From: Botryllus schlosseri
Lineage: Eukaryota
Length of the DNA stretch: 64,000 nucleotides
NCBI GenBank assembly: GCA_051294905.1
Contig: CM119371.1
Location: 12,276,001 to 12,340,000 of the forward strand
Direction: 5' to 3'
Below the pieces are notes generated by a model. That model had not been told where the DNA came from, searched no databases, and saw only the letters and a list, made by a program, of their open reading frames with translations. Shown piece after piece: positions 1 through 19,566 of the stretch. Numbering within the stretch: the first letter of the stretch is position 1; every line of letters begins with the position of its first letter. The position numbers and the translations under genes were made by a program.

Positions 1-209
1 GGGTTTTAGGGGTGGGTAACCAAGTGAATCATGAAAATGAGTGGAGTTATCGCTATATACACACACCCAATGAGAACCTGGTAACGTTGATTCATCGTAA
101 TTGATGACAACAGCAAATTTCTTGTTAACTGTTTTTTTCGGTAGCTGATGAATAGATTTTTCGTGTCAGTATGATTGAAGAGAATATTATTAATCTCATC
201 CGTGTTCAT
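1..209 (-). pseudogene. Adenain-type cysteine (maturation) protease, N-terminal part, frameshifted
   Basis: Starts MNTDEINNILFNHTDTKNLF at 209. After a frameshift it reads KFAVVINYDESTLPGSHWVCIYSDNSTHFHDSLGYPP, with the catalytic His (GSHW) and Asp (DSLG) motifs of Polinton proteases. Confidence 0.9.
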
Positions 210-1476
210 ATTTCCACGACCTGTCTTTTCTGGTTCAGTTGTAAGAGGTGTTGGTACTATTTTAAGCACAGCAATGTCACAGGCGTTGGTAGTGGCTTGG
301 AGGTTGTCAAAACCAGGTGTACGGTTCCGGTTTTGTGTAGTTGGTAACACCCTAAGCTATTGTCTGGGGTCAAATCAAACACGAACAGAGTATACCCGTT
401 CATATAGTCGGTAGGTGATATATTTAGAGGTGCCTCACCTTCCCACTTACCTGTCTCAGAAAAGAGCATCATATAACCTTCTAAACCCCCTGATTTTTCG
501 AAATCGAAATGAAATTCTCTGCCTCGTAATTGATTGCCACAAACAGACAATGACATATTCTGAATGTCATAATGTTTAAAGTTGAATGGATTTTTGTTTC
601 TAGCCCCGTTAAACGCTGTGGTTTCAACCAAAATAATTATAATTTTTTTCGGCAAAGTCCCGTTATTAACTCGCGGTCAAGCTTCGTCAGTCCCCCTGCG
701 AATGTATGAGTTGACATTTGAAGACGAGACCACGGATATTTAGCATTCGATTTCTGTAATATCGACTTGTGAGCTAAGCTGACACTCTCTGCAATTTTCA
801 TTTGTTTGACATATAGTTCCATATCCGTGATTACAATTTTCACGTCTTCCGTGGTTCCAATAAGGCAGAATTTTTCGTCGTTACATGTGAATCGTAATTT
901 CATATCGACATTATCCAGCATACATCTTGATTGCTCGAAAAGTCCCATTCGGATTTTACCAATCAACTCCAATGCTTTACTACTTTTCGAAAGACCTTTT
1001 CGCGTTACGTACCCTGTGTTTTCAGCGCCTATAGTATCCATAAATTTTGCGGTGTCTTTGTGGAAGCCCTGACCACGAATAAAACTGTTACACCCAGCGG
1101 GTGTGTCATTCAACAGTCGATAGATATACGCTTTGTAGGCGTGGCAATTGTCTGAGTTGGTGATTACTTCATTTCCGATAGTTACATCAATTTGTTTGAA
1201 AAGAGAATCTAATATATTGTTGACAAATGCTACTTCCGCGGCATCTGCTAAATCTGTTCCATCGGGTTTAGTAAGCTTTAGGCATAATCGTAAGAATGAG
1301 TTTTGCTGGTCGATGTATCTGTCTGTTTTAGGTAATGAAATTTCCATTACATTTCCCAGACTGTGTGGTTTAACGATAACATATTGTGAATTCTCTATCG
1401 AGGTTTGGGTATGAGGAACACTAAATATATTTAATCCGTTATTATGACATTCGCGGGAATCTTCATGCATCATCAT
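206..1476 (-). pseudogene. Major capsid protein (double jelly-roll, hexon-like)
   Basis: The N-terminus MHEDSRECHNNGLNIFSVPHTQTSIENSQY and the C-terminal FNFKHYD...GYTLFVFDLTPD...GTVHLVL are typical of Maverick MCP. There is a frameshift near 640-655 and a nonsense codon at 257-259. The true stop is at 206-208. Confidence 0.92.
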
Positions 1477-1567
1477 ATTAATCGAAGATGTCCTTCTCTT
1501 TGCGGCGTCGCTTCTTAAAAATGTTTGATTTAGTATTTTTCTTTCTTTTTATACCATTGGTGGGTTT

Positions 1568-1828
1568 CTAAATTCGATCAATAACGCGAGTCCTAGCGTG
1601 CTTACTTCTTTTGAGGGCACTGGACTTGATGGAGTGTCCGTTCAAAAGATCTCTGGCTATCTCGCTGCCGGTGCGTAACAATTGTCCGCCGGCGTATTTT
1701 ACAACAGGGGTCACGAAACCAATACCAGACCCTGTTTGGTGGCCACCGGTGAAATATCCAAATCCATTCCCTGTTTGATTATAATGGTTGTATACCGAGT
1801 GATGGTCGCAGGTGTATGCAACTTTCAT
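1568..1828 (-). CDS. Small basic Gly-motif protein (putative core protein / protease substrate), 86 aa
   Basis: Contains QTGNGFGYFTGGHQTGSGIG followed by a basic tail. It sits directly upstream of MCP, as in many animal Mavericks. Confidence 0.7.
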   Translation of the reverse strand: MKVAYTCDHHSVYNHYNQTGNGFGYFTGGHQTGSGIGFVTPVVKYAGGQLLRTGSEIARDLLNGHSIKSSALKRSKHARTRVIDRI

Positions 1829-2216
1829 AATTGCTTCCTAATGTTAAATGTGACTTGCAATGATTGGTTGTCTATATTTATAGGGTCACCGAATTCATTT
1901 CTCAGTGAAATACAAACGGAGTGTATTACATCTTGCGATATCGGAAAATAATATGGATTCGTTGATATCCAATTTTGCGACATGGTGTTATTTTGTAACG
2001 GGATGAGAGGAGTAAATTGGCTAATGTGTCTCCGACCAATCGTGGGTTGATAATATTACAATAAACAAACAAATATCGTCCTGGTATAGGATTGGTCAAT
2101 GTCATATTCATCTCCATAAGCGCTATCTCACGGTATCTCGTAGAGATTTCGTTAACAGTGGACAGCGAGTGCTGGAAACCTATATCATTCCTAGAATTGG
2201 TCAGCGTTAAAATCAT
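1825..2216 (-). pseudogene. Minor capsid (penton-like) paralogue C, short (~130 aa), one frameshift
   Basis: Reads YLFVYCNIINPRLVGDTLANLL, then after a frameshift NPYYFPISQDVIHSVCISLRNEFGDPI...VTFNIRKQL*. Confidence 0.8.
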
Positions 2217-2890
2217 CGTAAATGAAGTGTCAACGTAGTGTGTATACCATGGATCAACTGACCGAATTGGTCCGTAATGGAGATTTTTATATTCTGGATG
2301 TGATTTGTTGATACTGGAAAATATATCTGTTTCTCAAAAATGATCTCCTCGCGGTAACGTGGAGTGGTTTTGATTTGAATAACGCGAAGTAGTTGACTCA
2401 TATAATCACCCACGTGACGATGCTTGACTGAGTCACAATAAACAAAAAGATATCTTATCTCATTGGACACCGGCTTACACCTGATTAATGTGGAATTACA
2501 AAACCGTTATGTTAGGTCGCGTGTGACATTGAAATATTTTTCTAGAATACTGCCGGGATGGATTGTAATATATATCGGGGTTAGAATTCGGAATAGTTCT
2601 CCATTGATTTTCTCTATGTTATAAACAGTATTATACGCAAATCTTTCAGATAAAATCCTATACATCAACTGTTTCGGGGTAGCATAATTTACAATAGGAG
2701 CAAGGTATATATCTAGTAATTGTTGAGAATTACGATACTCCCAAAGTTTTTCATTGTGTTTAATAATAATCTGATTGTTTAACTCAACATTAAAGCTTAT
2801 GTCCATAAGTGAGATTTCATTGCAAATGAAAGTATTGGTAACGTTGACTGAGAATACCGCGTGATCACCAGAAATTGTGACGTATGTCAT
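2213..2890 (-). pseudogene. Minor capsid (penton-like) paralogue B (~225 aa), one in-frame stop at 2507-2509
   Basis: ORFs 2507..2890 and 2213..2470 are in the same frame. The C-terminus reads YLFVYCDSVKHRHVGDYMSQLLRVI...QIYFPVSTNHIQNIKISITDQFGQLI...LTLHLR. Confidence 0.85.
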
Positions 2891-4941
2891 ATCGAGTACA
2901 CAGCTTTTCGGCGGGATAAAAGACTGACAGTGACAGGTCCTCAGAGGTGGTCAGTAACGAAGTACTTCTACTTTTTCGAAGTACTCAAGTAGTTTTCCTC
3001 TACTTCTGGTACTTACTCAAGTAGATCTGATTTTCTCTACTTCTACTTCTACTTCTTAATATTTGGTGATCTACTTACTTACTTTTCGCTATTTTCAGTT
3101 TCTCAAGTAGAAGTAGTTCAATCTTCCAATCAGGAAGATAGCCTGAGGAATTTCGGAGCTGTTTTCACGGAGTATTAACATTTGATTTTCATAAAAGTTT
3201 AGTAAAGCAGAGAATTTTCGTCGCGCTTGGCGCGCAGTGGATACGGAGTGACCAGTATGATTTCACGAAAGTATCGGTGAATATAATTTAGGTGGAAGGT
3301 TGACGTGGTTCCGTTCATACCACATTGTCGCCCTTCGCCCATATGAAATAATTCATCAAAGTATATATGGCTCATCATAACGTTTGAAACTGATGTTTCG
3401 CAATCTAGCATTTTCTTGTCATATCGTAATCTAGCATATATATCCATGGTGTGTCCTAATCTGGAAGAGTGGACTTTGACTTTCTTTCTTAGTTTTAGAG
3501 CTGTTTTAGCATACCACCTTCGAAACTTTCTGGACTAAAAACATGAAATACATATTCTGCTTTTAGAGGTAGTATTTATATTTCACTTTAAATTCCCAGT
3601 ATCATATACAGTACTTTGAGTTATAATTAATATCAGTTCTTTTGTCCGGATAACATACATGTTGAAGTATAAAAGCAAGTGCAGCAATGCATTTAATTTC
3701 TGGAAATAAAGCTACACAATATGGCATTTTTATGGTCCACCATATTTTTTAGTAACGTTTACTAATAGCGCAAAGTGTTTACACCGTATCCTATACAACT
3801 TCTCCGTATTGCTCTTCGACTAAACTTAGGACCTTATAATATGGGGGATGGCGCTATACCAAGCTATTTTCTAATACGTGATGTTCCAGAAAACAGAGGA
3901 TTAGTATCGCGTTTCCTTATCAATACTATCATTTTCATCCCATGATGCGGATGAATGCTTATGCTATCGAAAATTGGATACCTGCGGGTATGCATCAATA
4001 TGAATCAAGCTCGTCACCTATCACATAGCTCAATTTGCACCTTTTTATAATCCATCCAATCAGAATCGTTTTCACAACTACTTACTTACTTGAGTACTTT
4101 TAAAGTCAGTCAATTCTACTTCTACTTCAAGTAGTTTTAGGTTGCTTATGAAAGAAGTACTTCTACTTGTACTTGAGTAGATTATTTCGTCGCTACTTCT
4201 ACTTCTACTTGAGTAGCTTTCTTGACTACTTTGACCACCTCTGTGAGGTCCTTTTTGAAATTTAATTGGGTTACCAAATTTATCATGTAAATATATTCGT
4301 ATTCGATGAAAATTGTTTTTCGCCAACGGGAAATAGTATGGTTTATGAAAGACACTAGTTTGATTCTGGTTTGGTTCACATGTTACTGTGATGACTCGTA
4401 AGAGTGCCTTTAACTGATTACCATGGGGTCGTGGTTGAATCAAATCAGAATATACATAAATTTGATCGATGGTATCTAATTTCACAGCAGGGGAAAATAT
4501 GAATTCTATCGGCATAGTGGAATGCGGGGCATATATGCGCTTAAAAGCTAATTTGCTCAATACGGGACCAATAGGTGACAATCCGTAAGTCTCTATTGAT
4601 TTCTCGGTGTTAAGGTCTTTCGGTCTCGTAATCATAGTCCCGATGTTATTATTTGTCGATATACTTCGCGTGTGTCTAACTCTGTGTGATGGTAAATATC
4701 GAAAAGCGATTCTAAGCTCGTCATATCCTTGAATGATGAATATTTCACCCATGTAGTATTTTTCAAAAGCTTCTAACATTTCCGCGATATTGTGATAGGA
4801 CCCTTCTGGAATATAATATTGCTTGACATCTGAATTTTCATCACCAAATCTGAACCCTATAACATTTCTTGCCACTTCAATCCGGGGTTGAAAATTGTTT
4901 TCAAAACTTATCTCAGAAAGACCGACAAGGTGTTGTGCCAT
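2887..4941 (-). pseudogene. Minor capsid (penton-like) paralogue A, interrupted near its C-terminus by a hAT element
   Basis: Reads IYVYSDLIQPRPHGNQLKALLRVI...PYYFPLAKNNFHRIRIYLHDKFGNPIKFQKGP up to 4244. It resumes at 2941 with VTVSLLSRRKAVYSI*, stopping at 2887. Confidence 0.88.
2942..4243 (+). mobile_element. Non-autonomous hAT element (family CAGAGGTGGTCA), copy 1
   Basis: The TIRs are CAGAGGTGGTCA / TGACCACCTCTG, with AAGTAG-type subterminal repeats. The TSD is imperfect (AGGTCCT on both sides). It is homologous to 11512..12763 in the opposite orientation. Confidence 0.92.
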
Positions 4942-5032
4942 TTCTAGTTCGCTGTAGAGTTCTGTTTAAAAATTTGATGGTGTATTTTCAAAAATTGACA
5001 TACTAGCATTGGACGGTAAAGTTAGCAGCATT

Positions 5033-5266
5033 TTATTGTATTCTCAGCGCAGATGGTTGTGGGAGTAAATATCCTAGACAGCTCGATAACAGCGTTAAAT
5101 ATATTTCGCGATCGGGTTTCACAGAAATTTGATATAATGAAAAAATGATTATTCCGACTAACATAAAAATTTGTACGACAAATGCACACTGATTTTTTAT
5201 TTCAAGCTTGAATTCAGTAACGCGACTTGTCGTGGACTGGGAATCCATATTTACAATATAAAACAT
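5033..5266 (-). CDS. Small two-TM membrane protein typical of animal Mavericks, 77 aa
   Basis: Two hydrophobic segments end in LLSSCLGYLLPQP. It lies between the integrase and the penton. Confidence 0.7.
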   Translation of the reverse strand: MFYIVNMDSQSTTSRVTEFKLEIKNQCAFVVQIFMLVGIIIFSLYQISVKPDREIYLTLLSSCLGYLLPQPSALRIQ

Positions 5267-5269
5267 TAC

Positions 5270-6334
5270 TCAAGGCTTTATATAGTAATCCGAAAACCAC
5301 GAATTAAATTTTTCGGGGTATCCAGACCATTTGACCAGGTACTCAGTTTTTCCAGCCTTATTACGTGTAGACAGAATCTTTTCGACGTTGAAAATGTCAT
5401 TATCAATAATTACAGGTTGAATTTCCTCGCGTTGAAAACGACCGGATATAATTTCGTTTGCATAATCTTTCAGTTGATAACTAACTGGGTCCCCGGAAAA
5501 ACATTTCGAAATGAAAAATATTTCTTCGCTCCAACCAGCCAATGCTGATTTTACGAATCGCTGTCGTGTTTTTTGAAATCCGCACAGGGGTACCAATGGA
5601 TAGTGTTGGTTGCTTTGGTGTGATATCGCCGTATAATCGATGAAAGACATCCTCTTGTTTTGAAAAATTAACATCAATTGGAGCGCGACCTATACTGGTA
5701 TGGTAAGTCGAGTTAAATCCTAGGCACATTTCCGATAAAACATTGACGTAATTTAACGTTTTATTATGTTTAAAGTAGAGAATAGTATCTACTTCACACT
5801 TCTGATGGCACGTTCGGCTATAGACGCCTTCAATTCGCTAAGTGTGAAAAAGTGTTTTACTCTGTTCTGTTTTAAAAAACTCTGGAAGGAGCGGTTTGTA
5901 AACTCAGTTCCCTGATCGCTCTGAATGATGTGTGGTTTAATTTGTGTAAAGATTTCTTTGAAACATCGAATAACACCCTTTGCAGATTTATCTCGAAGCG
6001 GAAAAGGATATAGAAATTTACTGAAAATGTCCACAACCAATATTACGTATATGAAACCATCATTTTTTGCTGCTAGGTTTTCCATGTGCATGATATTGGA
6101 CACCTAAACCCGATGTAATTACTTTTGGGCGTTGAAACTTTTGTCCACAGGGAAGTGTCTGGTATAGGCCTCGCGTCGCCTAAGAAAGTCTTTTACCGCG
6201 GTTCCATTGCGCCCCCTGCCGAATACATACGCTCCGCGATAGCTACCGGGTCGATCCGGAGCGAAATATTCAGTAAACGCTCCATTTGAATCGCGACGGT
6301 GTCTTGATAGACCGCCTCCTTTTCGTTGTGACAT
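5270..6334 (-). pseudogene. Retroviral-like (rve) integrase with C-terminal chromodomain, frameshifted
   Basis: The N-terminus reads YFAPDRPGSY...KDFLRRREAYTRH. The core reads YVILVVDIFSKF...IQSDQGTEF...KASIAERAIRSVK. The chromodomain reads FNVEKILSTRNKAGKTEYLVKWSGYPEKFNSW. The first catalytic Asp region appears to have been deleted near 6090. Confidence 0.93.
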
Positions 6335-6677
6335 GGGGCGAAGCGATTTTAGTTGTGGGTCTAGCAGGTGACTGGTTCGGTACGGGGATCTTTGAAGATT
6401 CGGGTTTGATTTTTATCATATGTCGTAACGCATCCAATTCAGCATTAGAAAACAGGTTCGGTTGATCTGGTACATCAATTTTCATTGGTTGATTCAGAAC
6501 ATCGTGTCTGTTCTGGAACCGATTCAACGCGTCGTTATATAACGCTAATTTTTTATCCCGCGGAATATTCATTTGTAATATTTCATATATACGTTTATCG
6601 ATGTCTGAATTCAGTTTTTGAATGTCGACATGGTTGATTGGATTCGGCGTGACGTAAATTTTCTTGAAATGTGTCAT
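6270..6677 (-). CDS. Conserved Maverick helical protein with basic tail, 135 aa
   Basis: Contains SDIDKRIYEILQMNIPRDKKLALYNDALNRF. This pattern is typical of the Maverick ORF upstream of the integrase. Confidence 0.6.
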   Translation of the reverse strand: MTHFKKIYVTPNPINHVDIQKLNSDIDKRIYEILQMNIPRDKKLALYNDALNRFQNRHDVLNQPMKIDVPDQPNLFSNAELDALRHMIKIKPESSKIPVPNQSPARPTTKIASPHVTTKRRRSIKTPSRFKWSVY

Positions 6678-7026
6678 TTCTTAAATAAATTCCCTAGTAA
6701 TCCTTTAACCACTGGAAGTATACTTGATATTAGAGACATAAACATACCACCATGTTGATTAACAACAAGATTCTTTTTACGTCGAAATGAAACGTCTTTG
6801 TTGGTAAGCTTCCTCAAGATGTTTCTATGGTAACACAATCGTTTCTTCTGAGACGGTGACAGTGGTATATTTCCGTTTAATAAATTCTTTGCACACTCAC
6901 AAATACAACGTATTAGACCTTCACTAGCCCCAGATCAAATTTCCTTGCGTATCGCGGGTTTAGCTTGGTGTGCAAGAATGCTAACGTCGGCAAATGGTCT
7001 CGTGTTCGTCGGGGGATTCGTGTCAT
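6674..7026 (-). pseudogene. Small basic protein with C-terminal amphipathic helix (putative membrane-lytic peptide precursor); not in the ORF track
   Basis: Manual translation gives MTRIPRRTRDHLPTLAF/fs/...EI*SGASEGLIRCICECAKNLLNGNIPLSPSQKKRL...HGGGMFMSLISSILPVVKGLLGNLFKK*. Confidence 0.8.
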
Positions 7027-7057
7027 TTTGAAACCAGAACAGCATACACCCCGGTAT

Positions 7058-7666
7058 TTATAGCGGTTGAGTGTAAATAGTCAATGTTTCGCCTGGAAAT
7101 ATATTGGTCATAGCCCGTCTATCATCATGGCACTCTTGCGTGAGATCGAGGAACAAATACGAATGAGGTCTCTTGACAGCGTCTCTATAACATTCTGTTC
7201 GAAACCTTGATTTTGGGTACATCTGACGACCCAACACGGATATTTGATTTTGATCTCTGGGATTTTTAAACAGGAAGACATACATAGCCGATAGACTGAG
7301 GTCGCGGGCTCCTTTACCCTGATGATGAAAATTCTGTGTGCAGAAAGCTATTGATTTGGCCCCGTGGTGACTTATACGTATAAAGTATTCTCCCAATTTT
7401 TCTGTCTGGGTCATAAAATCGTCAACTATTATCAATACATCCTCATTATTTGATTTAAGATCTTCCAAAATCACCAACCCGTTGTAAAATTCAACCTGCG
7501 GCATGTTCTCAAAAATACTCTGATAATTATTATAACAGTACACGATTCTAGAAATATTAGGTTTGGTCATTGAGGCTGCATTCTTGATCAGTTTAGTTAT
7601 GAAAGTAGTTTTACCACTGCGAGATGGTCCGGATAGGATGAACGAGAAAGGATGCTTCAATTCCAT
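7058..7666 (-). CDS. A32/FtsK-like genome-packaging ATPase, intact ORF of 202 aa
   Basis: Walker A is SGPSRSGKTT and Walker B is LIIVDD. RISHH and the arginine-finger region ARDLSL...FKNPRD are also present. Confidence 0.95.
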   Translation of the reverse strand: MELKHPFSFILSGPSRSGKTTFITKLIKNAASMTKPNISRIVYCYNNYQSIFENMPQVEFYNGLVILEDLKSNNEDVLIIVDDFMTQTEKLGEYFIRISHHGAKSIAFCTQNFHHQGKGARDLSLSAMYVFLFKNPRDQNQISVLGRQMYPKSRFRTECYRDAVKRPHSYLFLDLTQECHDDRRAMTNIFPGETLTIYTQPL

Positions 7667-7748
7667 GTTGCTGTTTATTCAAACTCGAAAAACGAATGTA
7701 TTTATATATATATCACGAGTCTGCGGACTGGGAAAATCCACTGTTGTA

Positions 7749-8177
7749 TTAATCTTCAAGTGAGATGTATAGTCCCAGCAAAGTTCGATTCAGCAGTTTG
7801 CCGCGTGTGACAAAGTCCTCATCACTGCCTTGTAATTTCGTCAAGGGTAGTTGCAAGGTCACGAAGGCTTTTTGAAGATCGTCGAGCAGTTGTTCCCAGT
7901 CTAGATATGAAATGATATTAGAGTTAAATTAGAAAGTGATTTGATGAAAATGTCTACCATGAGAACACAAAATCATACATGCTATATCACCATTGGAGCA
8001 TTGCTCTAAATCGTGGCGTTGGCTTGAAATGCATCGATTGTAGAATTCATTCGACATATCATGCCTCAAATACATGTCGACAAATTGAATGCGATCGTGA
8101 TACCGGCGCAGTGTCTTGTCGTGTAGTTGATCCAGGTTGGAACGTTGCAGTATAGATTTTTAGAAGTTAGTAGCCAT
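7749..8177 (-). pseudogene. Unassigned Maverick accessory ORF (~142 aa) with two in-frame stops
   Basis: The ATG at 8177 and the TAA at 7749 are in frame (143 codons). It reads MATNF*KSILQRSNLDQLHDKTLRRY...LGLYISLED*. Confidence 0.45.
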
Positions 8178-8321
8178 CTGTAAAACAAAACACAAATAGC
8201 CTACATTAACCATCCCAGTACAAAACTGGTCTTTAACCCGATCAGATATTACATTTGAACACCTAAAATTGATAAGCATTATCACTAAACAGCAAAATAT
8301 CACAAATTGGGGTCTGCACAG

Positions 8322-8939
8322 TAGGGTGGTTCAAAAATAACCTTTTTTCCTGAATCTTGCAGGTTACTTGATTAAATCGTTAGGTTGCCTTAAAAAACGA
8401 CGCACACCAAATTTGAATTCATTCCAACCAATTTTCGCGGATTTCGTAGAGTTTGAAAATTTTGAATTTGCCTAAAAATGCAAAAAAAAAAAATTTTCAA
8501 ATTTTTCTGCCAACCCCATGAAATTGTTGCGCTGTCTCCGAAAACAATGCAAAACAAATTTGACTCAATTCGAAGCCGTAGAAGTGGAGTTATTTCAGTT
8601 TTTCTTTGATAATTCTGGGATTATCCTTGATTGGTGGATCATCTCAGAATTATCATCAAAAAACTTGAATAACTCCGCTTCTGCAGCTTGGAATTGAGTC
8701 AAATTTGTTTTCCATCGTTTTTGAAGACAGCGCAACAATTTCATAAGGTTGGAAGGAAATTTGAAAAAAAAATTTTTTTGCATTTTTAGGCAAATTCAAA
8801 ATTTTCAAACTCTACGAAATCCGCGAATATTGGTTGGAATGAATTCAAATTTGGTGTGCGTCGTTTTTTAAGGCAACCTAACGATTTAATCAAGTAACCT
8901 GCAAGATTCAGGAAAAAAGGTTATTTTTGAACCACCCTA
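8322..8939. mobile_element. 618-bp fold-back MITE (hATm-like), almost entirely palindromic
   Basis: Begins TAGGGTGGTTCAAAAATAACC and ends with the reverse complement; the inverted arms are ~300 bp. It has a perfect 8-bp TSD, CTGCACAG, at 8314-8321 and 8940-8947. Confidence 0.95.
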
Positions 8940-9470
8940 CTGCACAGTTATAGTTATCGGGGAAGCCATCGTTTCTCAATTCAGAAGGTTGTGTTCCAGC
9001 ATCACTGCTTTCCGAGTCTGAATGAGATCGTTTTCGAGAGTTGGCAGCACGATGCTGATCGAGAAAGAACTGCAAGGAACGACCACGCATAGAATTCTTG
9101 AAGTTGACTCTTTTTTCCTCCCTATCGTAAAGTGGAATCCAAGTCCTGGTTTTACCCAAAACGACATAATTTGTCAGCTTGGCTCGATAGAAAATGTCTT
9201 TGTGATCGCTCGGTAGCTTGCGGTCTGGGAATCGAAGCTGTAGCAGTGCTTCCATGCATATTTCTCGAATAGAGTTCCATCTTTGCTCGAGCTGATTCAG
9301 GCGCTCTCTGGTCGGATATCGTACCGGTGAGTGGATCGTCCTGGGTGCCGATAATAGAGTGTTGCGTTAAATCCTGTCTCAACCCAATGGTTTGCTTATG
9401 CAAAGTATCCAGATCTAGCTCTATTACAACCGATTTGATGAAAGAACTTGCACTATTCATCTGCGAAAAC
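8940..9470 (-). pseudogene. Unassigned Maverick accessory ORF remnant(s) downstream of pPolB
   Basis: The open frame reads ERLNQLEQRWNSIREICMEALLQLRFPDRKLPSD...RKRSHSDSESSDAG...NYNC. It is cut by the MITE at 8939, and the upstream part is frameshifted. Confidence 0.4.
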
Positions 9471-12400
9471 AAGAAAAAACATGATCAGAAATACACAAAA
9501 GCAAGTACATTACAGATTCACCATCGTCCAGGACATGACGCTTGGCGTAAAAATAAGACAAGGTATCGCGATGCTGTTGGTACGTGTAAATACCGTGATT
9601 ATGAACCCTGAAACCTCTATTATGACCTCCCATAGGCTTTTGAGATGTCAATACTTCAAGGAATGTTTCAAAATTTACTTGACCAGATTTCTGAAGACCT
9701 TTCGAGGCATACTTTTGTTTTGGACCATCACAAAAGTAATTTTTTTATTGGAGACCACAAAATGCAGTACCGTCCTCGTATTCGACCTTGAACAAACCCG
9801 GTTGCCGTAGAAAGTATGCATAAACATCTTTACAGCATTGTCTTGTTCTATCGAATGAGATTGGGTTGGACAGGAACTCATTTTTATGTTCGTTACAAAA
9901 ATAGCGTGGGAACCATTTTTCATAATTCAGATAAAATTCAGATCTTGTTTCTGGGATTAGCATATCACCGAAAGAAGCTGAATGCCCGAGATGGATCGAG
10001 CCTGTGTCGCACATAGCCGCTGTCCATTTCCTGTCGTCAAAGTACGTACAGAGACAGTCATAAAAAACGATAGTAATTGCTGTTTCGCGTTTTGATGGAC
10101 GAACCACCCGACGTGAATACAAGTATTCCATTTTATGTTTTTTTAGGCCTTTTGGTTACTTCATATAAATTAGAGCTCATCTCTTCTACATTCACAAAAA
10201 CCGATCATTGACATATCTCTGCAATTGACTTTTATCACAAAAAAATGGTTCGTTTAAATTTGAGGGGGTTCATTATCATCTTCCCATATATGACATTGCC
10301 TGAGAGCTTATGAGTCAAGGCAATAATTTCTTTGTCGGGATCCCGGTCACCCAACCGTCTCGCGTCAGAGACAGTTTTTGCGAACCCTTCAAAACAAGTT
10401 TACTTTGTAAACTCGATTGCCTCGTATATTCGTGAAACTATGAGACCATGTTCTATATACCATTTTATCAATATCGATGACAAAAGAATTTTCTGGCCAT
10501 AGTACGAAGCAACCAACATACGGCGTTGGACTTGATAATAGGTTGTGATCAATAGCAAATTGCTTCATGTGACCTTTCAAATCGTTACGTGAGACAAGGG
10601 TGTTTTTGAATATTGGACACAGTTCAGAAAAATATCTTTTCAAATAGGAAGGAGTGTAAATATCAACCAATAAAGCCCAAAAGAACGTTCCATCTAACAC
10701 CATTTCAATCAACTTATGAGCTGTTAGTGACTTGTTGCGAATCAATCGAGGTCGAACACTATTTATAAATTGAGCGATTTCAGAGTTTTCACGTTTAGCG
10801 ATATCCCAGTGACATTCCCACATCATGATAACACGATGCTCTAGGCTTCTGTAATATGAATATGCAAAGCGGCATTTACTGTGAGAATGGAAGAAACACC
10901 CCAGAAACGATAACACAACGCCTCGACCCGATGAGTCACGGTAGAATGCATCTGCAGGGTACCCCTTGGAACCTATCCTTACTTCTGACCCATTGAAAGC
11001 ATGGTGGACATGTACACCATGAACATGAGAATAGTACTGTATCCATTCACGTGCTTTATGACCAAAGGTAGGAGCAGTCTTGACCGGTTTAAATTTAGAA
11101 CACTCATTATCAAGGCTTTTCGAATGAATGGGATACCCTGCGGGTGACGCAAGCGAAATTGCTCGAACGTACATCGAATTGCAATCCATTTCTGTTATAT
11201 ACTGCGTTATTTCCGCGTCTTTACCATAGAAAAGTTGTTTTATGCGAGTTACACCTTTTTTTATATATCTATTGAAGATGATTGATGGTCCGCCAACAAG
11301 ATTTTCACGAAAAAGTAAAGCTAGATCTTTATGCTTTTCACTGAACAAGGTAAAGCACCTTGGAATGGAATTGAATATATGCCTCGAAACAACACCCGGC
11401 AGCGAGACAGCTTCTTTAAATATATCCACATTAAATTGAGACTTGAAAGAGTCGAATTGCTTTTCTAGCCCTTCAATGAAGTATTGAGTGTCAATTGCAT
11501 TGTACCATTTTCAGAGGTGGTCAGAGTAGTCAATAAATCTACTCAAGTAGAAGTAGAAGTAGCGACGAAAAAATCTACTCAAGTGCGAGTAGAAGTACTT
11601 CTTCTTTAAGCAACCTTAAACTACTTGAAGTAGAAGTAGAATTGACTGACTTTAAAAGTACTCAAGTAAGTAAGTAGTTGTGAAAACGATCCTAATTCGT
11701 TCACATGGATTGTAAAAAGGTGCAAATTGAGCTATGCGATAAGTGACGAGCTTGATTCATATTGATACATACCAGCAGTTATCCAATTTTCGATAGCATA
11801 ATCATTCGTCCACATCGTGGGATGAAAATGATAGCATTGATATGGAAATGCGATGGTAATCCTCTGTTTTCTCGAACAGCACGTTTAAGAAAATAACATG
11901 GTGTGGCGCCATTCCCCATATCATAAGGCCCGTAGTTTAGTCGAAGAGCAATACGGAGAAGTTGTATAGGATACGGTGTAAACACTTTGCACGATTAGTA
12001 AACGTTGATAAAAATTATTGTGGACTATAAAAATGCCATATTGTGTGGCTTCATTTCCAGAAATTAAAGGCATTACTACACCTGCGTTTATACTTCAACA
12101 TGTATGTTATCCAGAAAAAAGAACTGATAATAATTATAACTCAAAGTATATGATACCGGGAATTGAAAGTGAAATATAAATACTACTTCTGAAAGCCGAA
12201 CATGTATTTCATGTTTTTAGTCCAGAAAGTTTCAAAGAACCCACTCTTCCTGATTTGGACACGCCATGGACATGCTAGATTACGATATGACAAGTAAATG
12301 CTAGATTGCGAAACATCAGTTTCAAAAGTTCTTATGAGCCAAATGTACTGTGATGAATTATTTGATATGGGCGAAGGGCGACAATGTGGTGCGAACGGAA

Positions 12401-14483
12401 CCACGCCAATCCTCTACCTAAATTATATTCACGGATACTTTGGTGAAATCATTCTGGTCACTCCGTATATCCACTGCGCGCGAAGCGCGATGAAAATTCT
12501 GGGCTTTACTAAAATTTTATGAAAATTAAATGTTGATACTCCGTGAAAACAGCCCCGAAATTCCTCAGGCTATCTTCCTGATTGGAAGATTGAACTACTT
12601 CTACTTGACAAACTGAAAATAGCGAAAAGTAAGTCAGTAGATCACAAAATATTAAGAAGTAGAAGTAGCGAAAATCAGATCTACTTGAGTAAGTACCAGA
12701 AGTAGAGGATAACTACTTGAGTAGTTCAAAAAAGTAGAAGTACTTCGTTACTGACCACCTCTGACCATTTTAGATAGTCACGAAGCGATGTCATATTATG
12801 ATCATTCCAAACCTTGAGAAAGTTTTCATGATCGGCTTTCGATATATTACAACGTTTTATCGAGCTATAAAATGACTGATGAGTCCGGAGCATAGGGTAA
12901 TCCAACAGTTCAATACTAGTCAGAAATTCATATGGAAAATGACCCTTTGTACCACCACATTTGAACGCTTTCAGATATTTTTCATAAGAAAAACCAGGTG
13001 CCAAGTAATTGACAATATCAAGGAAACGAAGTCTGTTCAAGTTCAAGTCGTATCTACCGCCATTTAAAGATATAACTGGTATTTGCCTTAGATAACACAT
13101 GAATTCATCTTGTAAACATTCCAATGGTAAAGGCTTGTCCGAGGGGTCTAATACTTTCATTTCCGCGATTTTAGATTCAAACAAATCCAGATATTGACGG
13201 TATTCGACTAGCAACAGACTGAAGGATCGACTCTGAATTGTATGAAAAATTTCTACCATCTCTTCACACAACTGATTCGGGTCGCCATTCGGAACAATTA
13301 CTTGTGGTTACAAATATCCATCCACATTTGATGATATACTAACTGAAATTGGAATATGCTTCCACTCGTAAGTCGTTTTAGCCGAGGGATCAAAATCACA
13401 TTTTTGAAACATACTCTCGATATCGAAGGCGATCCGATATTTTAAAAAATGTAAATGATTTGGGACAATTATGCCTTCAATCTTCATTCGTTCAAATGTC
13501 GTCAAAGCTGGTCTATATATCCCACCCGGAAAAATCTCGACTGGTTCAGTGATGCAGTTGTGTCTGGTCAATTCATATTCAAGATCGAAAAATTTTCCAC
13601 AAGATTCACAATGATAGCTTTCGAGGTATCTGTTGATCTGAGTTATCAAGCAAGCATGAGAATTTTCGAGGTGTAAATAAACAGGAGTGCCTACATAAGT
13701 ACTACGTCGGACAGCAATAGCTTTACCATCGGTCTTACGATAGACAGATATCGCTACATCAAGCAATGTCTCGATGTCAGGCAACATCTCAAAAGTTACA
13801 CCACCAAAAACGTTCACACCATAAACCTGGGTATACTGTTCAGCCAATGATTTCGCATCACGATCGAGTGAGTGCCCAATACAACGAAATACACACAGAT
13901 TATCATTATACCGATTACGATTTTTATCGTAAAGTAGTGTCATGACACATTTCGATTTTGTAAGCCACAGTGGAAGTTTTACATCAGCACACCCTATCAA
14001 TAACCGATCGCTAGGGAATATGTAAAACTGTATATTTGTTAGACAAACAGGCTGCGATTTAGTATCCGGTCGGGCTTTACGCAATATATCAAATGCAGTT
14101 TCCCATTTAATGGATTCAACAAATTTTTCAAACTGTATCAATGATGAAATAGCCAATGGTATATCCAGAACACGATCGATATTTGACGATGCATGAAAAT
14201 AACGATATCTTAGAGTCTCGGTGTGGTATAGAATACAACCATATGAATAGTTGACTTTAAATCTATATGATTCAGAAAAGAATATCGCTTCGATGTCCTC
14301 GTAAACACCCGAGAGTTGACGATTTATAATCCTAATTTTGTACACCACTCGAGATCTGCCTATATTTGCTACATACGATTTTATGGCTTGCCAGTTCTGT
14401 GTTAAAATTTCTTGGCGTTCATCACCAATATCTGGTGGAAATTCATCTTCCTCACGGATACGGTGTCTTCTGCGACGGTTCAT
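9457..14483 (-). pseudogene. polB: Protein-primed family B DNA polymerase (pPolB), fragmented, with hAT insertion
   Basis: It has a C2H2 finger (CESCGKFFDLEYELTRH), an exonuclease motif (IAFDIES), SLNGGRYDL, GHFPYEF and FRENLVGGPSIIF. DCNSMY is motif A. An internal Vsr-like nuclease reads FLGCFFHSH. Motif C is degraded to CDTGS. PGLFKVE and the C-terminal NRGFR...YTYQQ.R..LSYFYAKRHVLDDG are also present. Confidence 0.95.
11512..12763 (-). mobile_element. Non-autonomous hAT element (family CAGAGGTGGTCA), copy 2, inserted in pPolB
   Basis: It has the same TIRs as 2942..4243 and a perfect 8-bp TSD, ACCATTTT, at 11504-11511 and 12764-12771. Confidence 0.96.
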
Positions 14484-14872
14484 CTGTAACATTTGTATTC
14501 GATTTCAATTTCACACTCTGTATTCTAGTAATTAACAAGATAGTAATACTTACTTGTATTTTTTTCTTGAAATCTTGAGTTCTTTTCACCTAGTAAACAA
14601 AGAAACAACCTTCCTCAAATTATGTTCACCAACCTGAGGTAGTAAAAACAGAGAACTTACCGATGCAATAAGTTCGGTGATTGGACTTGATTCTTTCTCT
14701 TTATCTGTTTCGATGAAGCAAGAAAACATCACGTTAACACAAACTTTAGTTTATTTAATTAGATCAGTGTATACTTACACGTGTATTGTAATATATCCAC
14801 GAGCGCAGATTTCACATCTTCTCGCTGCGACGTCCAGGTGGAAAAGACCGATTTGACTGCGTCGAGGTTAAT
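14484..14872 (-). other. Putative spliced leader exons of pPolB (three ~70-nt GT-AG introns)
   Basis: GTAAGT donors lie at 14778, 14660 and 14553, and YAG acceptors end at 14705, 14590 and 14484. The intervening exons (94, 44 and 36 nt) join into one open frame with the pPolB ORF. Confidence 0.6.
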
Positions 14873-15082
14873 CTAGTGCGAGCACCATCTAGTGCTCACG
14901 ATTTTCAGATTGTTTGTAAGCCTATTATCTGTAATTTCATACACAGCACATGAACATTCACATTCACACAATAAATACATTACACTGAATCACAAATATA
15001 TTTCAAGGTGGTTCTAATTGTTAAGAGCTGGTTCAGGAATTGGTCGGTTGCATCGTTCAGTTGTTTTTAAATCTGATCAAGA

Positions 15083-15886
15083 TCACTTGCGTTCAATAGC
15101 CGAAGCCAATAGCTTTTTTATTTCAAGAATGATTTTGTGCAGGGAAGGTTTCTTCTTTTCTGTAAGGGAATCAATGAAACCTAGAATCATGCCTAGGTGT
15201 GGTATGACCACATCAAGAGTCTTGAGATGGTCTCGAATATTGTTGGCGGTGCACAGACATATTTTCTCCTCTTGTCGTCTCCCTCTCGATGTCTTCGCCC
15301 GATCTTCATCTTAGCCGAGTTTCACCTGGTTAAGAACCAAAGTTTTTTGTTTCTATTTAGAGAGACGTATCTTTTTACATGGAGGTGGACTGGTTTGTTG
15401 CGAGGTTGTGGGTACATCTCGCTTTCTAGAACTTGATGGTTTCTCGATTGGGATCTGTGGTTTTGGTAGACCGGAAAATAACCTTCGAGAAGTCGTCGGT
15501 TTTTCAGATGGTACCGTGGATCGAACTCTAGATTTTGGAAAAATCTTACGAGGAGTTGCCGGTTTCTCAACTGGTAACACAGCTGAAGTTGTCGGTTCAT
15601 CTGGAAGGGGTAAGTTCAAAGCCGAGGTTGTCGGGTTGTCAACCGTGACTTGGTTCGAACCACGTGATTCCAACCATGCCTGTAGTGTGATGTCACGGTG
15701 AGGCGGTTGGTTTTCGATAGGTGTCGTGGAATCACACTCAACGACCTCTGTCGTTGAAGTAACGAGGTCTTCGGATAGGAGGGCCTCCAAAATATCCGCA
15801 TCTTCTTCAAATTGCAGTTCAAAAGAATTAGGTTCATACCCGATGGTATTAAATCTGTTCAACTGAGCCTGGGTCATGATTAACAC
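15083..15886 (-). pseudogene. Acidic, Ser/Thr/Pro-rich disordered protein with NLS-like motif, frameshifted
   Basis: The acidic N-terminus reads FELQFEEDADILEALLSEDL, followed by imperfect (E/D)KP(T/A/S)(T/S) repeats and PPPCKKIRL. It continues after a frameshift to ...LASAIERK* at 15083. Confidence 0.5.
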
Positions 15887-15963
15887 AAATTAAAATCGAG
15901 GTATACTGATCGACGGATGATATTCGGTATGAGCGAGTGGGATTTACCAGTTTACTGAGGACC

Positions 15964-15995
15964 TATTTATTCAAAACTACTTCCTCTTTCCCGCC
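15964..15995. promoter_or_regulatory. E2F-type site (TTTCCCGCC, 15987-15995) plus TATA-like TAAATA on the minus strand in the divergent promoter
   Basis: The consensus match is seen directly between the divergent ORFs starting at 15886 (-) and 16133 (+). Confidence 0.4.
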
Positions 15996-16132
15996 ATCAG
16001 TCCCCTTCTTCCTATTTGGTATCGTGTTACTCTGTTCATTATAACAACCTTTTATTCATTCTAATTTCCGATGTATGATCACCTAATTACCGGAATTATT
16101 TTTACAGTTTCTGTTGTCAATAACTACACAAT

Positions 16133-16465
16133 ATGAACTCAACTCATACCCGAGTGATTATAGAAAATTATCTACTTCACCATCACCATTTACCTGTCTC
16201 TGATTTGAGCGAAACAGAACAGTTGGTTCACGATATCGTTGATTTAAACATATCTGATCAAATTGTTGAGAGCATCGAGAAATGTGATTTCACATCACTA
16301 ACCAACACGATTCTGGGATACGGTGTGGACTGGAATGGTGTTATTTGTATTGTTGCGATCACAGCTATGAAAAGTGATGTTCATACTATCTCATTGTACA
16401 CAGATGCATCATCGAAATTCTTGAATACACACTTTATCTCACTGACAAATGATTGGGTATGCTGA
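16133..16465 (+). CDS. Putative divergent Bcl-2-like protein, intact ORF of 110 aa
   Basis: DFTSLTNTILGYGVDWNGVICIVAI resembles BH1 (F..[13 protein letters not shown]). KFLNTHFISLTNDW resembles the YLNDH...W approach to BH2. This is an alignment by eye only. Confidence 0.5.
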   Translation: MNSTHTRVIIENYLLHHHHLPVSDLSETEQLVHDIVDLNISDQIVESIEKCDFTSLTNTILGYGVDWNGVICIVAITAMKSDVHTISLYTDASSKFLNTHFISLTNDWVC

Positions 16466-16582
16466 ATTTCAGACTACACAATCATAAAACTATCATTATG
16501 ATTCCATTTACTGAATTCCTGCAGGGATTATTTCAAACCCAGTCTGTTCAGGCGATTTATCCAACTTCGAAACCGAGTAACT

Positions 16583-16616
16583 ACGCGTTTATGGTCACGT
16601 GACTAGGTCTATAAAA
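16583..16616 (+). promoter_or_regulatory. Promoter of the OB-fold gene: ACGCGT, palindromic E-box GTCACGTGAC (16594-16603), TATAAAA (16610-16616)
   Basis: The motifs are seen directly, 39-72 bp upstream of the ATG at 16655. Confidence 0.55.
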
Positions 16617-16654
16617 TACGAGTAACCCACGACAATGATCATTATCTGGACATC

Positions 16655-17256
16655 ATGGCAATGGGGAGTATATAAAAATTGACCATTGGGAAATCATCGG
16701 ACCTGCGAATTGCAGTCAAGTTTGTTTCCTCCCCGAAAAAGGGGCTCGTTAGTAGTTACCTGAAAGGTGTATTTATAGACAACGAGGACAATACTATACC
16801 CTTCACTTGTTTCAACCAAGAACTGTTCAAAGCCATCGAAAAAGCTTTTAGGAAACGCAAGCGACTACTCATTAAAACAGCCTGGACTCGACTCGATAAG
16901 TTCACGGGAGAACCTACTTTGCTAATCGGTCGAAGTTCGTCTGTTACTATTCATGGCACATCAAAACACACCCCGGACGAGTACCCCGTGGTAAGCTGTA
17001 ACACTATAGGCAGCGAAAAATATATTTCAATCAACGCGGTATGTATCGATCACGAGGAAAAATCCATCCCTGTCAATGGCGAAGACCTCAAACTACATAG
17101 TTTTACGTTAAGCGACGACACCGGAACTGTCAAACTCGATCAATGGACCTCGCCTGGTTTAAAAAAGGGAAAAAGTATGCACTAACGCGCGTCAAAAACC
17201 ACGAAGGAAGATTAAAGATTGACCAATTAACTCGAATTCTAGAGTTAAAAGAATGA
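16655..17256 (+). pseudogene. Tandem OB-fold ssDNA-binding protein (RPA-like), one nonsense codon and one frameshift
   Basis: It starts MAMGSI*KLTIGKSSDLRIAVKFV. OB1 includes VFIDNEDNTIPFTCFN. OB2 includes FTLSDDTGTVKLDQW, then after a frameshift GKKYALTRVKNHEGRLKIDQLTRILELKE*. Confidence 0.75.
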
Positions 17257-19566
17257 TATGTATGTGTGTCTACTGTTTCACAATACACAATGGTTGATGC
17301 ATATTTTCGTGTCATCTGTGATTCATGATATAGGCCTACTCAACACATTGAGTCAGTTTTGCGCTGAGCGGTTGTATTTGGTTCGTATTGTGTACGCTCA
17401 CGGATTGCTTTTCGACAACCTGTTGTACGGGAAACAATTCGCGATATAACCACTATAGTAATTCAGTGGACAGGATACCATAGTCATTTGTCCCAGCGGA
17501 ATATGTAGGTCACTATACATTAAAAACACCTGTTTTCAAAACCGATCGTGGAAAATCAACCATATGCACGTTATACAATGTAATTACTTCGACGAAATAC
17601 ACAATCGCGTCCATGAAGCACCACAATGACGCTTTTCCGAAGCTCCATAGCCCGATTTTCGACTGCTAGCTAGCTCAAACTGCACCGTTTCTGGTTTCGA
17701 AATACAACATTTGTGACTTCCGGTATTTTACGAATCACCAGCGATCGATTATACTACTGACATATGTGAGGATTGGTGTGAATGAAACCAGTTAACAATG
17801 TTTCTATGTTTACGATTGATTTAAATTATTACGTGGAATAAATATTATTTTTTGTACTCCAACTTTGTAATTGTGTAATAGCAACACATACAGTCGGCAG
17901 CTTGTGTTAGCAACGTAATTCAATGCGTTCAAGCAAACATTTGACTTAATCCGCCAAGTATTTCCTGCTTCTCATTCTCAGAGAAATTATTGCCCACCTC
18001 TAGCTTCGTGGTTCTCAAGTAATTAAAGGTTAACAACGATACTGAACTGGATTTCATTCTCCTGGGCAACGCATTAATTTTCATTTTATCTAAAATATCA
18101 GACATGAGTCGACATTTCAAATTGACGGGGTTTCGAGTTTGAAATGGGACAGATTTCGATCACAAAAAACTCACAATGGCTACGACACTGATAGTAATGA
18201 TGGCTCTGAGCTAGCAATTGCTACACATTCAACAGAACAGCGGTATCACGATTCACGCAAAACGACGTCACATGTGTTCAAGTTAAGTTGTTCGGCGACT
18301 AACCTTTTTTCAATAGTGCAACTAGAACTAGAACTACTGGACTTTTAAAATCTAGATCTAAAACCGGAACTGGAACTATTCACTTTTTAATATCCGCAAC
18401 TGCAACTAGAACTAGAACTTGTCCTACTCACTTTTAAAAATCTGCATCTAGAACTACAACTATCCAATCGTAAAATCTGCAGCTATAACTGCGCAAAACT
18501 CCGTTAGTTATAGTTGACCGTCAACTACTAAAAGGATAGTTTGTACCAGTCTGATTTGAATAGGTTTATCAATTGAACGATAGCCTCAATACTGTTTGGA
18601 GTCAATAATTAGCCCCTTGCTGTCATATCGACATGGTTCCGCTTGGCTACATTCTCCAAATGTCTTATATTTTAGACCTATAATGGGCAGTGTTCGTACA
18701 TGTAATAGGGGCTGTTCGACTGTCTCTTCTAACATGCATGGGTGGCCCCAGCCATCTTCGTCTCAAGTTTTCAGATCAATTAAATGTGAATTAATATGGT
18801 GTTTAATACAATTACAAGCCCCGTTCGCGATTCGATTTCCCTGAGGTTGTCATAAGAAATAAATTTGGGCAATATACATTGAACATTGCTTAGGGAGAGG
18901 CAGGTGAAATTGAGGCAGTGATTTAATAAGTTGTAACTAACAATATTGACAATATATTAGAGTGGAGAAGATTAACATACCACAGGCCTAGATTAACCTC
19001 GTTGCGACAGACTTTCAAATACGGAATGGTTATCTGAAAGACATTCGCTAAAGGACGACGATTTCTCGTTATCAAATGAAGGAAGAAACAATTTATTGAA
19101 ATCAGAGCTGCTGTTGTATATTGAGCTATGTAGCAACGATAAAAATATCTGGCTGCTTTTCCTGTTTGCATTCGTCAAACCATGGTTTGGACTATTGTGC
19201 GATACCAAACGCATGCGGCCCGCAGACGTTTATTTTCCGGCCCGCAACATCTGCGATGTTTACACTAGTCAACACATGTTTTTAGGAAGACAAATTAAGT
19301 ATAGTGATGGAGGCTCTGAAGGGCACTGATTCCGAATATGGCCCTATTTTTTCAAATTGGCTCTTGTTTTGGAGATAACCCATGGGGCTGTTTCGACTAA
19401 AATCTCCCGTTTTCGCTGTAATCGCTAGATAGAAAATCAGCCCAGTCTTACGATAAAGTTTACAAATTCAGTCTACTTGCTATTGTTACACACAGAAAAC
19501 TCTTTCAAATCAAAATACAGCAACAGTACTGTATTCAGGGGTATTCAATTTATCATAGTTATGGAC

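What the first reader, a model, noticed from the sequence alone, without database searches (positions are those of the whole stretch)
14484..14872. Three ~70-nt spliceosomal introns form an in-frame leader for pPolB
Seen: three perfect GTAAGT donors (14778, 14660, 14553) each pair with a YAG acceptor, giving introns of 74, 71 and 70 nt. Removing them gives one open frame, INLDAVKSVFSTWTSQREDVKSALVDILQYT-YKEKESSPITELIAS-VKRTQDFKKKIQ-MNRRRRH..., which runs into pPolB. An acceptor at 14873 implies a further upstream exon. Known: Maverick core ORFs are usually described as intronless. The uniform intron size and frame conservation argue against chance.
Basis: partly seen in the sequence, partly recalled or inferred. 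Interest (0 to 1): 0.7.

Follow-up and report, generated by a model that had tools for sequence, protein, structure and literature searches.

The report
Tiny introns upstream of Maverick polymerase
A virus-like transposon (Maverick) has three tiny intron-like stretches just ahead of its DNA polymerase gene, one of them found removed exactly in a likely RNA dataset, but most related copies carry a stop signal just before the polymerase, so the small exons likely form a spliced leader rather than an extra front end of the enzyme.

Summary
The three donors, acceptors, intron sizes (74/71/70 nt) and the open frame are as described and unlikely by chance (4 of 300 simulated windows). One contig of a likely RNA run lacks intron 2 exactly; the DNA run shows no such joint. 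Introns 1 and 3 have no junction support. The in-frame reading fails for the family: the last codon of exon 3 is a stop in about 90% of DNA depth and in all covering contigs of two other runs, and one-base indels occur in all three exons. This copy is dead and its open frame is a minority state. pPolB most likely starts at its own ATG (14483), set directly at the last acceptor, where its closest full-length relatives also start. Splicing before pPolB is widespread: of 12 related groups, two have conserved in-frame coding mini-exons and one a closed exon before an own ATG. Papers read call Maverick core genes intronless. The scan noted spliced pPolB leaders before on other DNA, in this genome too. 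New variant of a known kind.

The parts
14484..14553 (-). Intron 3 (70 nt), GTAAGT donor; acceptor AG directly before the pPolB ATG
   Evidence: no junction seen; the acceptor is likely kept in the 66%-identical relative P0002, whose frame reads Leu-Gln-Met at this place
14554..14589 (-). Exon 3 (36 nt); last codon is sense in this copy, a stop in most other copies
14590..14660 (-). Intron 2 (71 nt), the only one with junction evidence
   Evidence: joint 14586/14659 in X6 equals exact removal of 14590-14660 in a copy with one extra base in exon 3
14661..14704 (-). Exon 2 (44 nt); one-base deletion in part of the family
14705..14778 (-). Intron 1 (74 nt), predicted only
   Evidence: retained in the X6 contig that spans it
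14779..14872 (-). Exon 1 as proposed (94 nt); may begin at 14824 instead
14825..14899 (-). Candidate fourth intron (75 nt, GTGAGC...CAG, phase 0), alternative to the 14873 acceptor
   Evidence: untested
13308..14483 (-). First intact stretch of pPolB, from its own ATG
   Evidence: 15 of 28 shown family substitutions are synonymous, 17 of 28 at third positions
9457..13307 (-). Rest of pPolB, broken by a stop, a 1.25-kb insertion and frame changes
15083..15310 (-). 75-codon open frame upstream, same frame as exon 1; may be a 5' part of the upstream reading frame
   Evidence: no usable Atlas hit
15353..15877 (-).
   Evidence: no Pfam match
16676..17185 (+). Divergent ORF, OB-fold / single-strand-binding-like
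   Evidence: Atlas features 0.95 to OB-fold clusters; a few X24 reads
17753..17758 (+). (ACT)2 motif, likely right terminus of the Maverick
   Evidence: depth in X1 rises towards it
7058..7666 (-). Packaging ATPase (A32-like)
   Evidence: PF04665, 23.4 bits against cut-off 22.8
5270..6370 (-). Integrase with chromodomain, in pieces
   Evidence: PF00665 and PF00385
215..1476 (-). Major capsid protein, in two pieces
   Evidence: 35% identical to the L005 ORF, whose model matches double jelly-roll capsids

Best explanation
This is a decayed Maverick whose polymerase gene is preceded by small exons that the host spliceosome likely joins into a 5' leader; in most copies a stop codon closes that leader at the end of exon 3, so pPolB likely starts at its own ATG, the first codon after the last acceptor. 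Shown: the splice signals, exact removal of intron 2 in one contig, the stop in most copies, the start position shared with relatives. Inferred: a leftward transcription unit starting between the divergent ORFs (about 15900-16100); removal of introns 1 and 3; a short, loosely constrained upstream reading frame in the leader whose stop would abut the pPolB AUG after splicing; translation of pPolB by re-initiation or leaky scanning, which would keep polymerase output low.
For: Exact intron-2 joint in X6, absent from X1. Stop at the last codon of exon 3 in 765.5 of 850.2 (X1, 9 contigs), 16.4 of 16.4 (X6, 2 contigs), 8.99 of 8.99 (X7, 1 contig), three studies. Of the 12 indel rows shown (of 82), 3 lie in the 174 nt of exons, 3 in the 215 nt of introns, 0 in 1184 nt of pPolB and 0 in the 525-nt ORF (P about 0.0008 for exons against these ORFs). 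Closest full-length relatives P0004, P0005, P0006 begin within -1 to +3 residues of this ATG; P0002 keeps Leu-Gln-Met there. A parallel case: L028 and L029 share donor, acceptor and a 78/79-nt last exon closed in all three frames, before an own ATG. The copy is broken in pPolB, integrase and capsid.
Against: Only 1 of 3 introns has a junction, from one low-depth contig of a run whose RNA nature is a guess; the 13 raw RNA reads laid from X24 show no joint. Intron 3 has a weak pyrimidine tract (0.40). The exons are stop-free in the pPolB frame more often than chance (365 of 20000 shuffles, or 669 of 20000 for the shorter exon 1), and the one shown substitution in exon 1 is synonymous, so they may be real coding exons. 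346 substitution rows and 70 indel rows were not shown, so indels may compensate each other, and contig depth is not copy number. Two related groups do fuse coding mini-exons to pPolB. Exon 2 and the pPolB exon are both phase 0, so skipping exon 3 would give a fusion. No in-frame ATG lies in the three exons, so the start of the upstream frame is not located.
Confidence: 0.55

Rival explanations
1. The mini-exons are the 3' end of a separate small upstream gene, and the pPolB mRNA is cut free by spliced-leader (SL) trans-splicing at the acceptor before its ATG, as in ascidian operons; intron 3 would be used only sometimes.
For: Stop at the end of exon 3 and stop-free frame before it. Acceptor-like sites placed exactly at an ATG also at 9460 (pyrimidine share 0.79) and 15600 (0.74) in this element. 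Ciona operons are resolved by SL trans-splicing with no intercistronic DNA (PMC1488885, passages). Earlier unchecked notes call this host a sea squirt and report SL at Polinton start codons.
Against: The same paper says acceptors with an upstream partner donor are preferentially cis-spliced, and a perfect donor lies 70 nt upstream. No loose end at 14483 among the 18 of 134 shown. Host identity and SL were not tested here.
Confidence: 0.2
2. One reading: the exons encode an N-terminal extension of pPolB. The fusion would be made by skipping exon 3, by read-through of the stop, or by a minority of active copies that lack the stop.
For: Open frame in this copy. Phase 0 at the end of exon 2 and at the pPolB exon. 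In-frame coding leaders in two related groups: L021 group (exon lengths 48/42 and 54/57 nt, no Met within 160 codons of the main acceptor in 6 of 8 loci) and L056/L057/L061/L062 (zinc-finger and acidic exons, 4 of 4 in frame).
Against: Stop in about 90% of family depth; one-base indels in all three exons; the only junction seen includes exon 3. This lineage has its own ATG at the acceptor and close relatives start there. No similarity of the exon peptides to 151 proteins or 80 loci.
Confidence: 0.17
3. The donors are chance or cryptic sites in AT-rich spacer DNA, and the single joint is aberrant splicing or a deletion in one copy.
For: GTAAGT is at background frequency in the window. One contig only; introns 1 and 3 unsupported; intron 2 mostly retained in X6 (6.86 against 2.6 depth).
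Against: Cluster and frame statistics; the joint matches both predicted ends to the base; donors are enriched on the sense strand upstream of pPolB in related loci (29 seen, 12.1 expected, 15 antisense, 6 in the ORF; 29 non-independent loci) and conserved within groups.
Confidence: 0.08

Closest known systems
Maverick/Polinton elements (vertebrate set, Barreat and Katzourakis 2021, PMC8097293, passages; nematode Mavericks, Widen et al., 10.1101/2022.07.12.499685, passages)
   Same: pPolB, integrase with chromodomain, A32-like ATPase, double jelly-roll capsid, (ACT)2 end motif.
   Different: Those papers report intronless core genes; introns were seen only in captured cargo genes of nematode elements. 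Here introns lie in the pPolB transcription unit. The pPolB coding body itself is still without introns in this family.
Adenovirus E2B unit (pTP and Ad-pol mRNAs; PMC11304566 and PMC7851563, passages)
   Same: A protein-primed polymerase reached through several small spliced 5' exons joined to a terminal coding exon; rare mRNA.
   Different: Adenovirus uses long introns and shares the exons between pTP and Ad-pol; here the introns are about 70 nt, no second target of the leader was found, and a stop lies at the last junction. It works like E2B but is no member of it.
SL-resolved operons of Ciona intestinalis (PMC1488885, passages)
   Same: An upstream reading frame closely followed by an acceptor at the start of a downstream gene.
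   Different: There the acceptor is unpaired and takes a trans-spliced leader; here it has a perfect cis donor 70 nt upstream. SL use not tested.
Introners in dinoflagellate Maverick/Polinton-like elements (PMC11957031, passages)
   Same: Spliceosomal introns inside Maverick-like elements.
   Different: Those are mobile intron-generating transposons, mostly acquired after integration; here the three introns were not reported as repeats of each other (minimum 30 nt) and sit at a recurring place upstream of pPolB in several groups.

Membership tests
Maverick/Polinton | Protein-primed family B polymerase | tested here: met
   34-48% identical in pieces to P0004/P0005, which pass the PF03175 cut-off; broken in this copy
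Maverick/Polinton | Retroviral-like integrase | tested here: met
   PF00665 53.7 bits and PF00385 37.5 bits
Maverick/Polinton | A32-like packaging ATPase | tested here: met
   PF04665 23.4 bits, cut-off 22.8
Maverick/Polinton | Double jelly-roll major capsid protein | tested here: met
   indirect: window pieces 35% identical to the L005 ORF; its model (pLDDT 66.9) matches Sputnik, mavirus and PBCV-1 capsids, E 3e-14
Maverick/Polinton | Adenain-like protease | tested here: inconclusive
   no such Pfam match among 22 ORFs scanned; the left part of the element lies outside the window
Maverick/Polinton | Terminal inverted repeats with (AGT)2//(ACT)2 ends | tested here: inconclusive
   one (ACT)2 motif at 17753-17758 (the hexamer occurs 48 times in the window); the other end is outside the window
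Maverick/Polinton | 6-bp target-site duplication | not testable with these tools
   left end outside the window and no genome held
Maverick/Polinton | pPolB class (Alpha/Beta, pPolB1/2) | not tested
   no reference set was fetched
Major-class (GT-AG) spliceosomal intron | GT donor consensus and YAG acceptor | tested here: met
   3 of 3
Major-class (GT-AG) spliceosomal intron | Pyrimidine tract and branch-like site | tested here: inconclusive
   tract 0.70, 0.70 and 0.40; only loose branch-like matches
Major-class (GT-AG) spliceosomal intron | Exact removal in RNA | tested here: inconclusive
   met for intron 2 in one contig of a guessed RNA run; not seen for introns 1 and 3
In-frame coding leader of pPolB | Frame open into pPolB across family copies | tested here: not met
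   stop at the last codon of exon 3 in about 90% of X1 depth and all covering X6 and X7 contigs
In-frame coding leader of pPolB | Exon length changes only in multiples of three | tested here: not met
   one-base indels at 14582, 14694, 14788 at 14-36% of X1 depth (70 rows not shown)
SL-resolved operon | Spliced leader joined at the downstream acceptor | tested here: inconclusive
   13 raw RNA reads only; no loose end at 14483 among 18 of 134 shown

The most novel reading that the evidence does not exclude
Splicing of intron 3 builds a stop-start tandem that puts the stop of a small spliced upstream gene directly against the pPolB AUG, and the choice among including exon 3, skipping it and trans-splicing at the same acceptor is a switch that sets whether and in which form the Maverick makes its polymerase. 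Together with the fused and closed leaders in related groups, spliced pPolB 5' ends would be a general, adenovirus-E2B-like trait of invertebrate Mavericks, and many annotated pPolB N-termini would be incomplete.
Probability: 0.25. Interest if true: 0.75.

Novelty: new variant of a known kind. Interest (0 to 1): 0.5.

Why it matters
Mavericks are described as having intronless core genes, and how they express their polymerase is not known from the papers read. A junction-supported intron in the pPolB unit shows use of the host spliceosome and gives primer sites for testing when and where these elements are transcribed. Related groups differ in whether the leader is fused to pPolB or closed by a stop, so ORF-based annotation misses true N-termini in some lineages (11 of 29 loci examined have no in-frame ATG before the conserved part) and invents them in others. 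It also shows that a gene model read from one dead copy can mislead.

Tried and rejected
No genome is held for this window, so copies could be compared only through one read lay of 4 of the 24 listed runs; no listed holder is on record as RNA. Viral-contig scans found nothing. Alignments A1 and A2 were too loose or unused for locus scans; A3 gave 80 loci, all only about 22-49% identical to the window's frame, none of this family. A protein search with the 67-codon frame upstream of intron 1 found no candidate of near length. The search and the 'orf_helix' query were in the wrong frame and are void; the right frame was run only against local sets and the Atlas, with no hit. A single-sequence capsid model was unusable (pLDDT 32); PDB sequence searches found nothing. 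Look-ups of earlier notes by sequence or relatives gave nothing. Rejected: the acceptor at 14873 as proof of a further exon (weak tract; a better intron 14899-14825 exists, and in a trans-splicing host an unpaired acceptor needs no upstream exon); a 70-nt intron 14942-14873 (phase 1, does not keep the frame of the upstream ATG); a join to the ORF at 15877 (no joint seen). The three other joints are single diverged DNA contigs with unknown letters between, not introns. X24 strand directions were not used: 85% of its 13 reads run on unlike the stretch.

Full report
Context. The region lies in the right part of a Maverick/Polinton that fills about 1-17760 of the window. On the minus strand it holds capsid pieces (215-1476), an integrase with chromodomain (PF00665, PF00385), an A32-like ATPase (PF04665) and pPolB. 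The capsid call is indirect: the pieces are 35% identical to an ORF of locus L005 whose model matches double jelly-roll capsids. The 391-codon frame from 14483 is the pPolB N-terminal part: 1424 representatives match at E up to 0.001, and the best full-length ones pass PF03175 in 2 of 3 cases. An (ACT)2 motif at 17753-17758 fits the end motif described in PMC8097293 (passages). The copy is dead: pPolB has a stop at 13308-13310, a 1.25-kb insertion and frame changes near 10525 and 10140-10065. No genome is held. Earlier unchecked notes call the host a sea squirt; I did not test that.

Observation. All coordinates check out: donors at 14778, 14660, 14553, introns of 74, 71, 70 nt, phases 1, 0, 0, and an open frame into the ATG at 14483. 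The hexamer is at background level in the window (32 against 28.9), but a cluster of three within 230 nt arose in 4 of 300 simulated windows, and 25 of 3000 shuffles with fixed donors gave acceptors and an open frame. Introns 1 and 2 have pyrimidine tracts of 0.70, intron 3 only 0.40. The proposed acceptor at 14873 is weak; a 75-nt phase-0 intron at 14899-14825 fits the series better but is untested.

RNA evidence. I laid 4 of 24 listed runs on 13300-17500: X6 (RNA by guess, 109 contigs laid), X7 (kind unknown, 54), X24 (raw RNA, about 6% read, 13 reads laid) and X1 (DNA by guess, 1595). Four joints were listed. One, in X6 only (1 contig, depth 2.6, 25 letters on the short side), equals exact removal of 14590-14660 in a copy with one extra base in exon 3. 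The other three are single diverged X1 contigs with unknown letters between. So 1 of 3 predicted introns has a junction; intron 1 is retained in the X6 contig that spans it, and intron 2 is mostly retained too (6.86 against 2.6), as expected if X6 holds DNA or unspliced RNA.

The frame is closed in most copies. Among the 40 of 386 substitution rows shown, one changes the last codon of exon 3 into a stop: 765.5 of 850.2 depth in X1 (9 contigs), 16.4 of 16.4 in X6, 8.99 of 8.99 in X7. Among the 12 of 82 indel rows shown, one-base indels lie in exon 3 (14% of X1 depth, all of X7), exon 2 (36% of X1, all of X6) and exon 1 (14% of X1), three more in introns 2 and 3, and none in 1184 nt of pPolB or the 525-nt ORF (P about 0.0008). 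The pPolB frame behaves as coding (15 of 28 shown substitutions synonymous). Caveats: depth is not copy number, hidden rows could compensate some indels, and the indels sit mostly in base runs. Against a purely non-coding reading, the exons are stop-free up to that last codon in only 365 of 20000 shuffles (669 with the shorter exon 1), and the one shown change in exon 1 is synonymous. I read this as a short, loosely constrained upstream frame that ends at the junction.

Where pPolB starts. Of 151 relatives, 82 align within the first 35 residues; their N-terminal extensions run from -17 to +617 residues, but the three closest full-length ones start at -1, +2 and +3 relative to the ATG at 14483. 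The 66%-identical fragment P0002 reads Leu-Gln-Met at the same place, which is what a kept YAG acceptor before the ATG would give (inference, its DNA could not be fetched). The exon peptides match none of these proteins (best E 0.16) and none of 80 loci.

Relatives. A metagenome scan kept 80 of 130 confirmed stretches, none of this family. In the 29 of 80 with the N-terminal part and at least 500 nt upstream, GTRAGT occurs 29 times on the sense strand upstream, against 12.1 expected, 15 antisense and 6 in equal lengths of ORF; 11 of 29 have no in-frame ATG before the conserved part. These loci fall into about 12 groups (my grouping), so the counts are not independent. Group A (8 loci, 73-95% alike): the main acceptor is kept in 8 of 8 and in frame in 7 of 8; the last mini-exon is found with its donor in 5 of 8 (48, 48, 42, 48, 48 nt), the one before in 6 of 8 (54 or 57 nt; for L021 and L060 read, as the script picked an inner site), an earlier one is 57 nt in 3, 56 nt in 1 and deleted or absent in 4. 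Group E (4 of 4 loci, 62% column identity): conserved donors and acceptors around zinc-finger (81/84 nt) and acidic exons, all phase 0 and in frame. These are coding leaders fused to pPolB. Group F (2 loci): donor and both acceptors kept, last exon 78 or 79 nt, closed in all three frames, own ATG 2 nt after the acceptor, like the window's family. Four groups or single loci gave weaker signs (L069, L010-L012, L058/L059, L005) and five have an own ATG with no clear sign (L030/37/38, L009, L002, L066, L019/20). None of this has RNA support.

Mechanism. Most likely a leftward unit starting near 15900-16100, between the 174-aa ORF and divergent plus-strand ORFs (inferred), is spliced by the host; the mini-exons form a leader whose frame stops at the last junction, and pPolB is translated from the AUG that follows, by re-initiation or leaky scanning (inferred; 0.55). 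Rivals: a separate upstream gene with SL trans-splicing at the pPolB acceptor (0.2; a lead from earlier notes and PMC1488885, whose passages also say paired acceptors prefer cis-splicing); a true fusion through exon 3 skipping, read-through or a minority lineage (0.17); chance (0.08).

Literature. PMC8097293 (passages): intact vertebrate Mavericks have intronless ORFs, no introns observed. 10.1101/2022.07.12.499685 (passages): core genes intronless, introns in cargo genes. PMC11957031 (passages): introners in dinoflagellate elements. PMC11304566 and PMC7851563 (passages): adenovirus pTP and Ad-pol mRNAs share three 5' exons, and E2B mRNAs are rare. Term searches within 10.1101/697771, PMC8502044, 10.1101/2023.08.22.554363, PMC11296320, PMC8363768, 10.1101/2024.03.25.586562, PMC10175614, PMC9356565 and PMC8504770 (passages) showed no spliced pPolB. 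Listings of seven library searches (the first held 210 papers, 25 listed) showed no title or abstract start on it. Supplements were not read, and Repbase entries and subscription papers are outside the library, so a prior description is not excluded. The scan itself noted spliced pPolB leaders before, in other genomes (e1-7879951, e1-7879957, e1-7469974) and in other Polintons of this genome (e1-9820412, e1-9814383); the summaries shown report no RNA proof at the polymerase.

Verdict. Observation confirmed; introns supported, one by a junction; in-frame pPolB extension not supported for this family. New variant of a known kind, interest 0.5.

Noticed in passing
window 9460 (-) and 15600 (-): Strong pyrimidine-rich acceptors placed exactly at an ATG: a 102-codon ORF whose ATG overlaps the pPolB stop, and a 92-codon ORF inside the 174-aa ORF in another frame. 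No Pfam match above cut-off. Candidates for splice or trans-splice entry sites.
   Followed up: partly
window 16676-17185 (+): OB-fold, RPA/SSB-like accessory ORF facing away from the pPolB unit (Atlas 0.95, recognition 2327); a few RNA reads fall on it.
   Followed up: partly
window 11512-12764 and 2941-4243: Two inverted copies of a 1.25-1.3 kb element with terminal repeats; the one inside pPolB has an 8-bp target duplication, hAT-like by recall. A related end lies near 29580-29838.
   Followed up: partly
window 14996-14997 and 15087: This copy differs from most laid contigs by one-base indels here, so its frames between 15310 and 14980 are not those of the family.
   Followed up: no
L056, L057, L061, L062, about 950 nt upstream of pPolB: Three conserved introns with coding exons; a C2H2-like finger appears split by a phase-0 intron between its two cysteines, followed by an acidic exon.
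   Followed up: partly
L021, L023, L039, L052, L060, L073, upstream of pPolB: At least three conserved acidic mini-exons, all phase 0, ahead of a zinc-finger pPolB exon that lacks its own Met.
   Followed up: partly
L069:4656-5500: Several acidic mini-exons and an acceptor just before the conserved pPolB start, no in-frame Met; single locus.
   Followed up: no
window 8314-8947: A roughly 630-nt near-palindromic insertion between pPolB and the ATPase.
   Followed up: no
window 14878-14899 (-): A small inverted repeat that could form an 8-bp stem over the candidate donor at 14899 and the acceptor at 14889 (read).
   Followed up: no
window 42730-44964 (+) and 57276-58424 (+): A tnp2-type transposase ORF (below Pfam cut-off) and a NACHT-domain ORF.
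   Followed up: no
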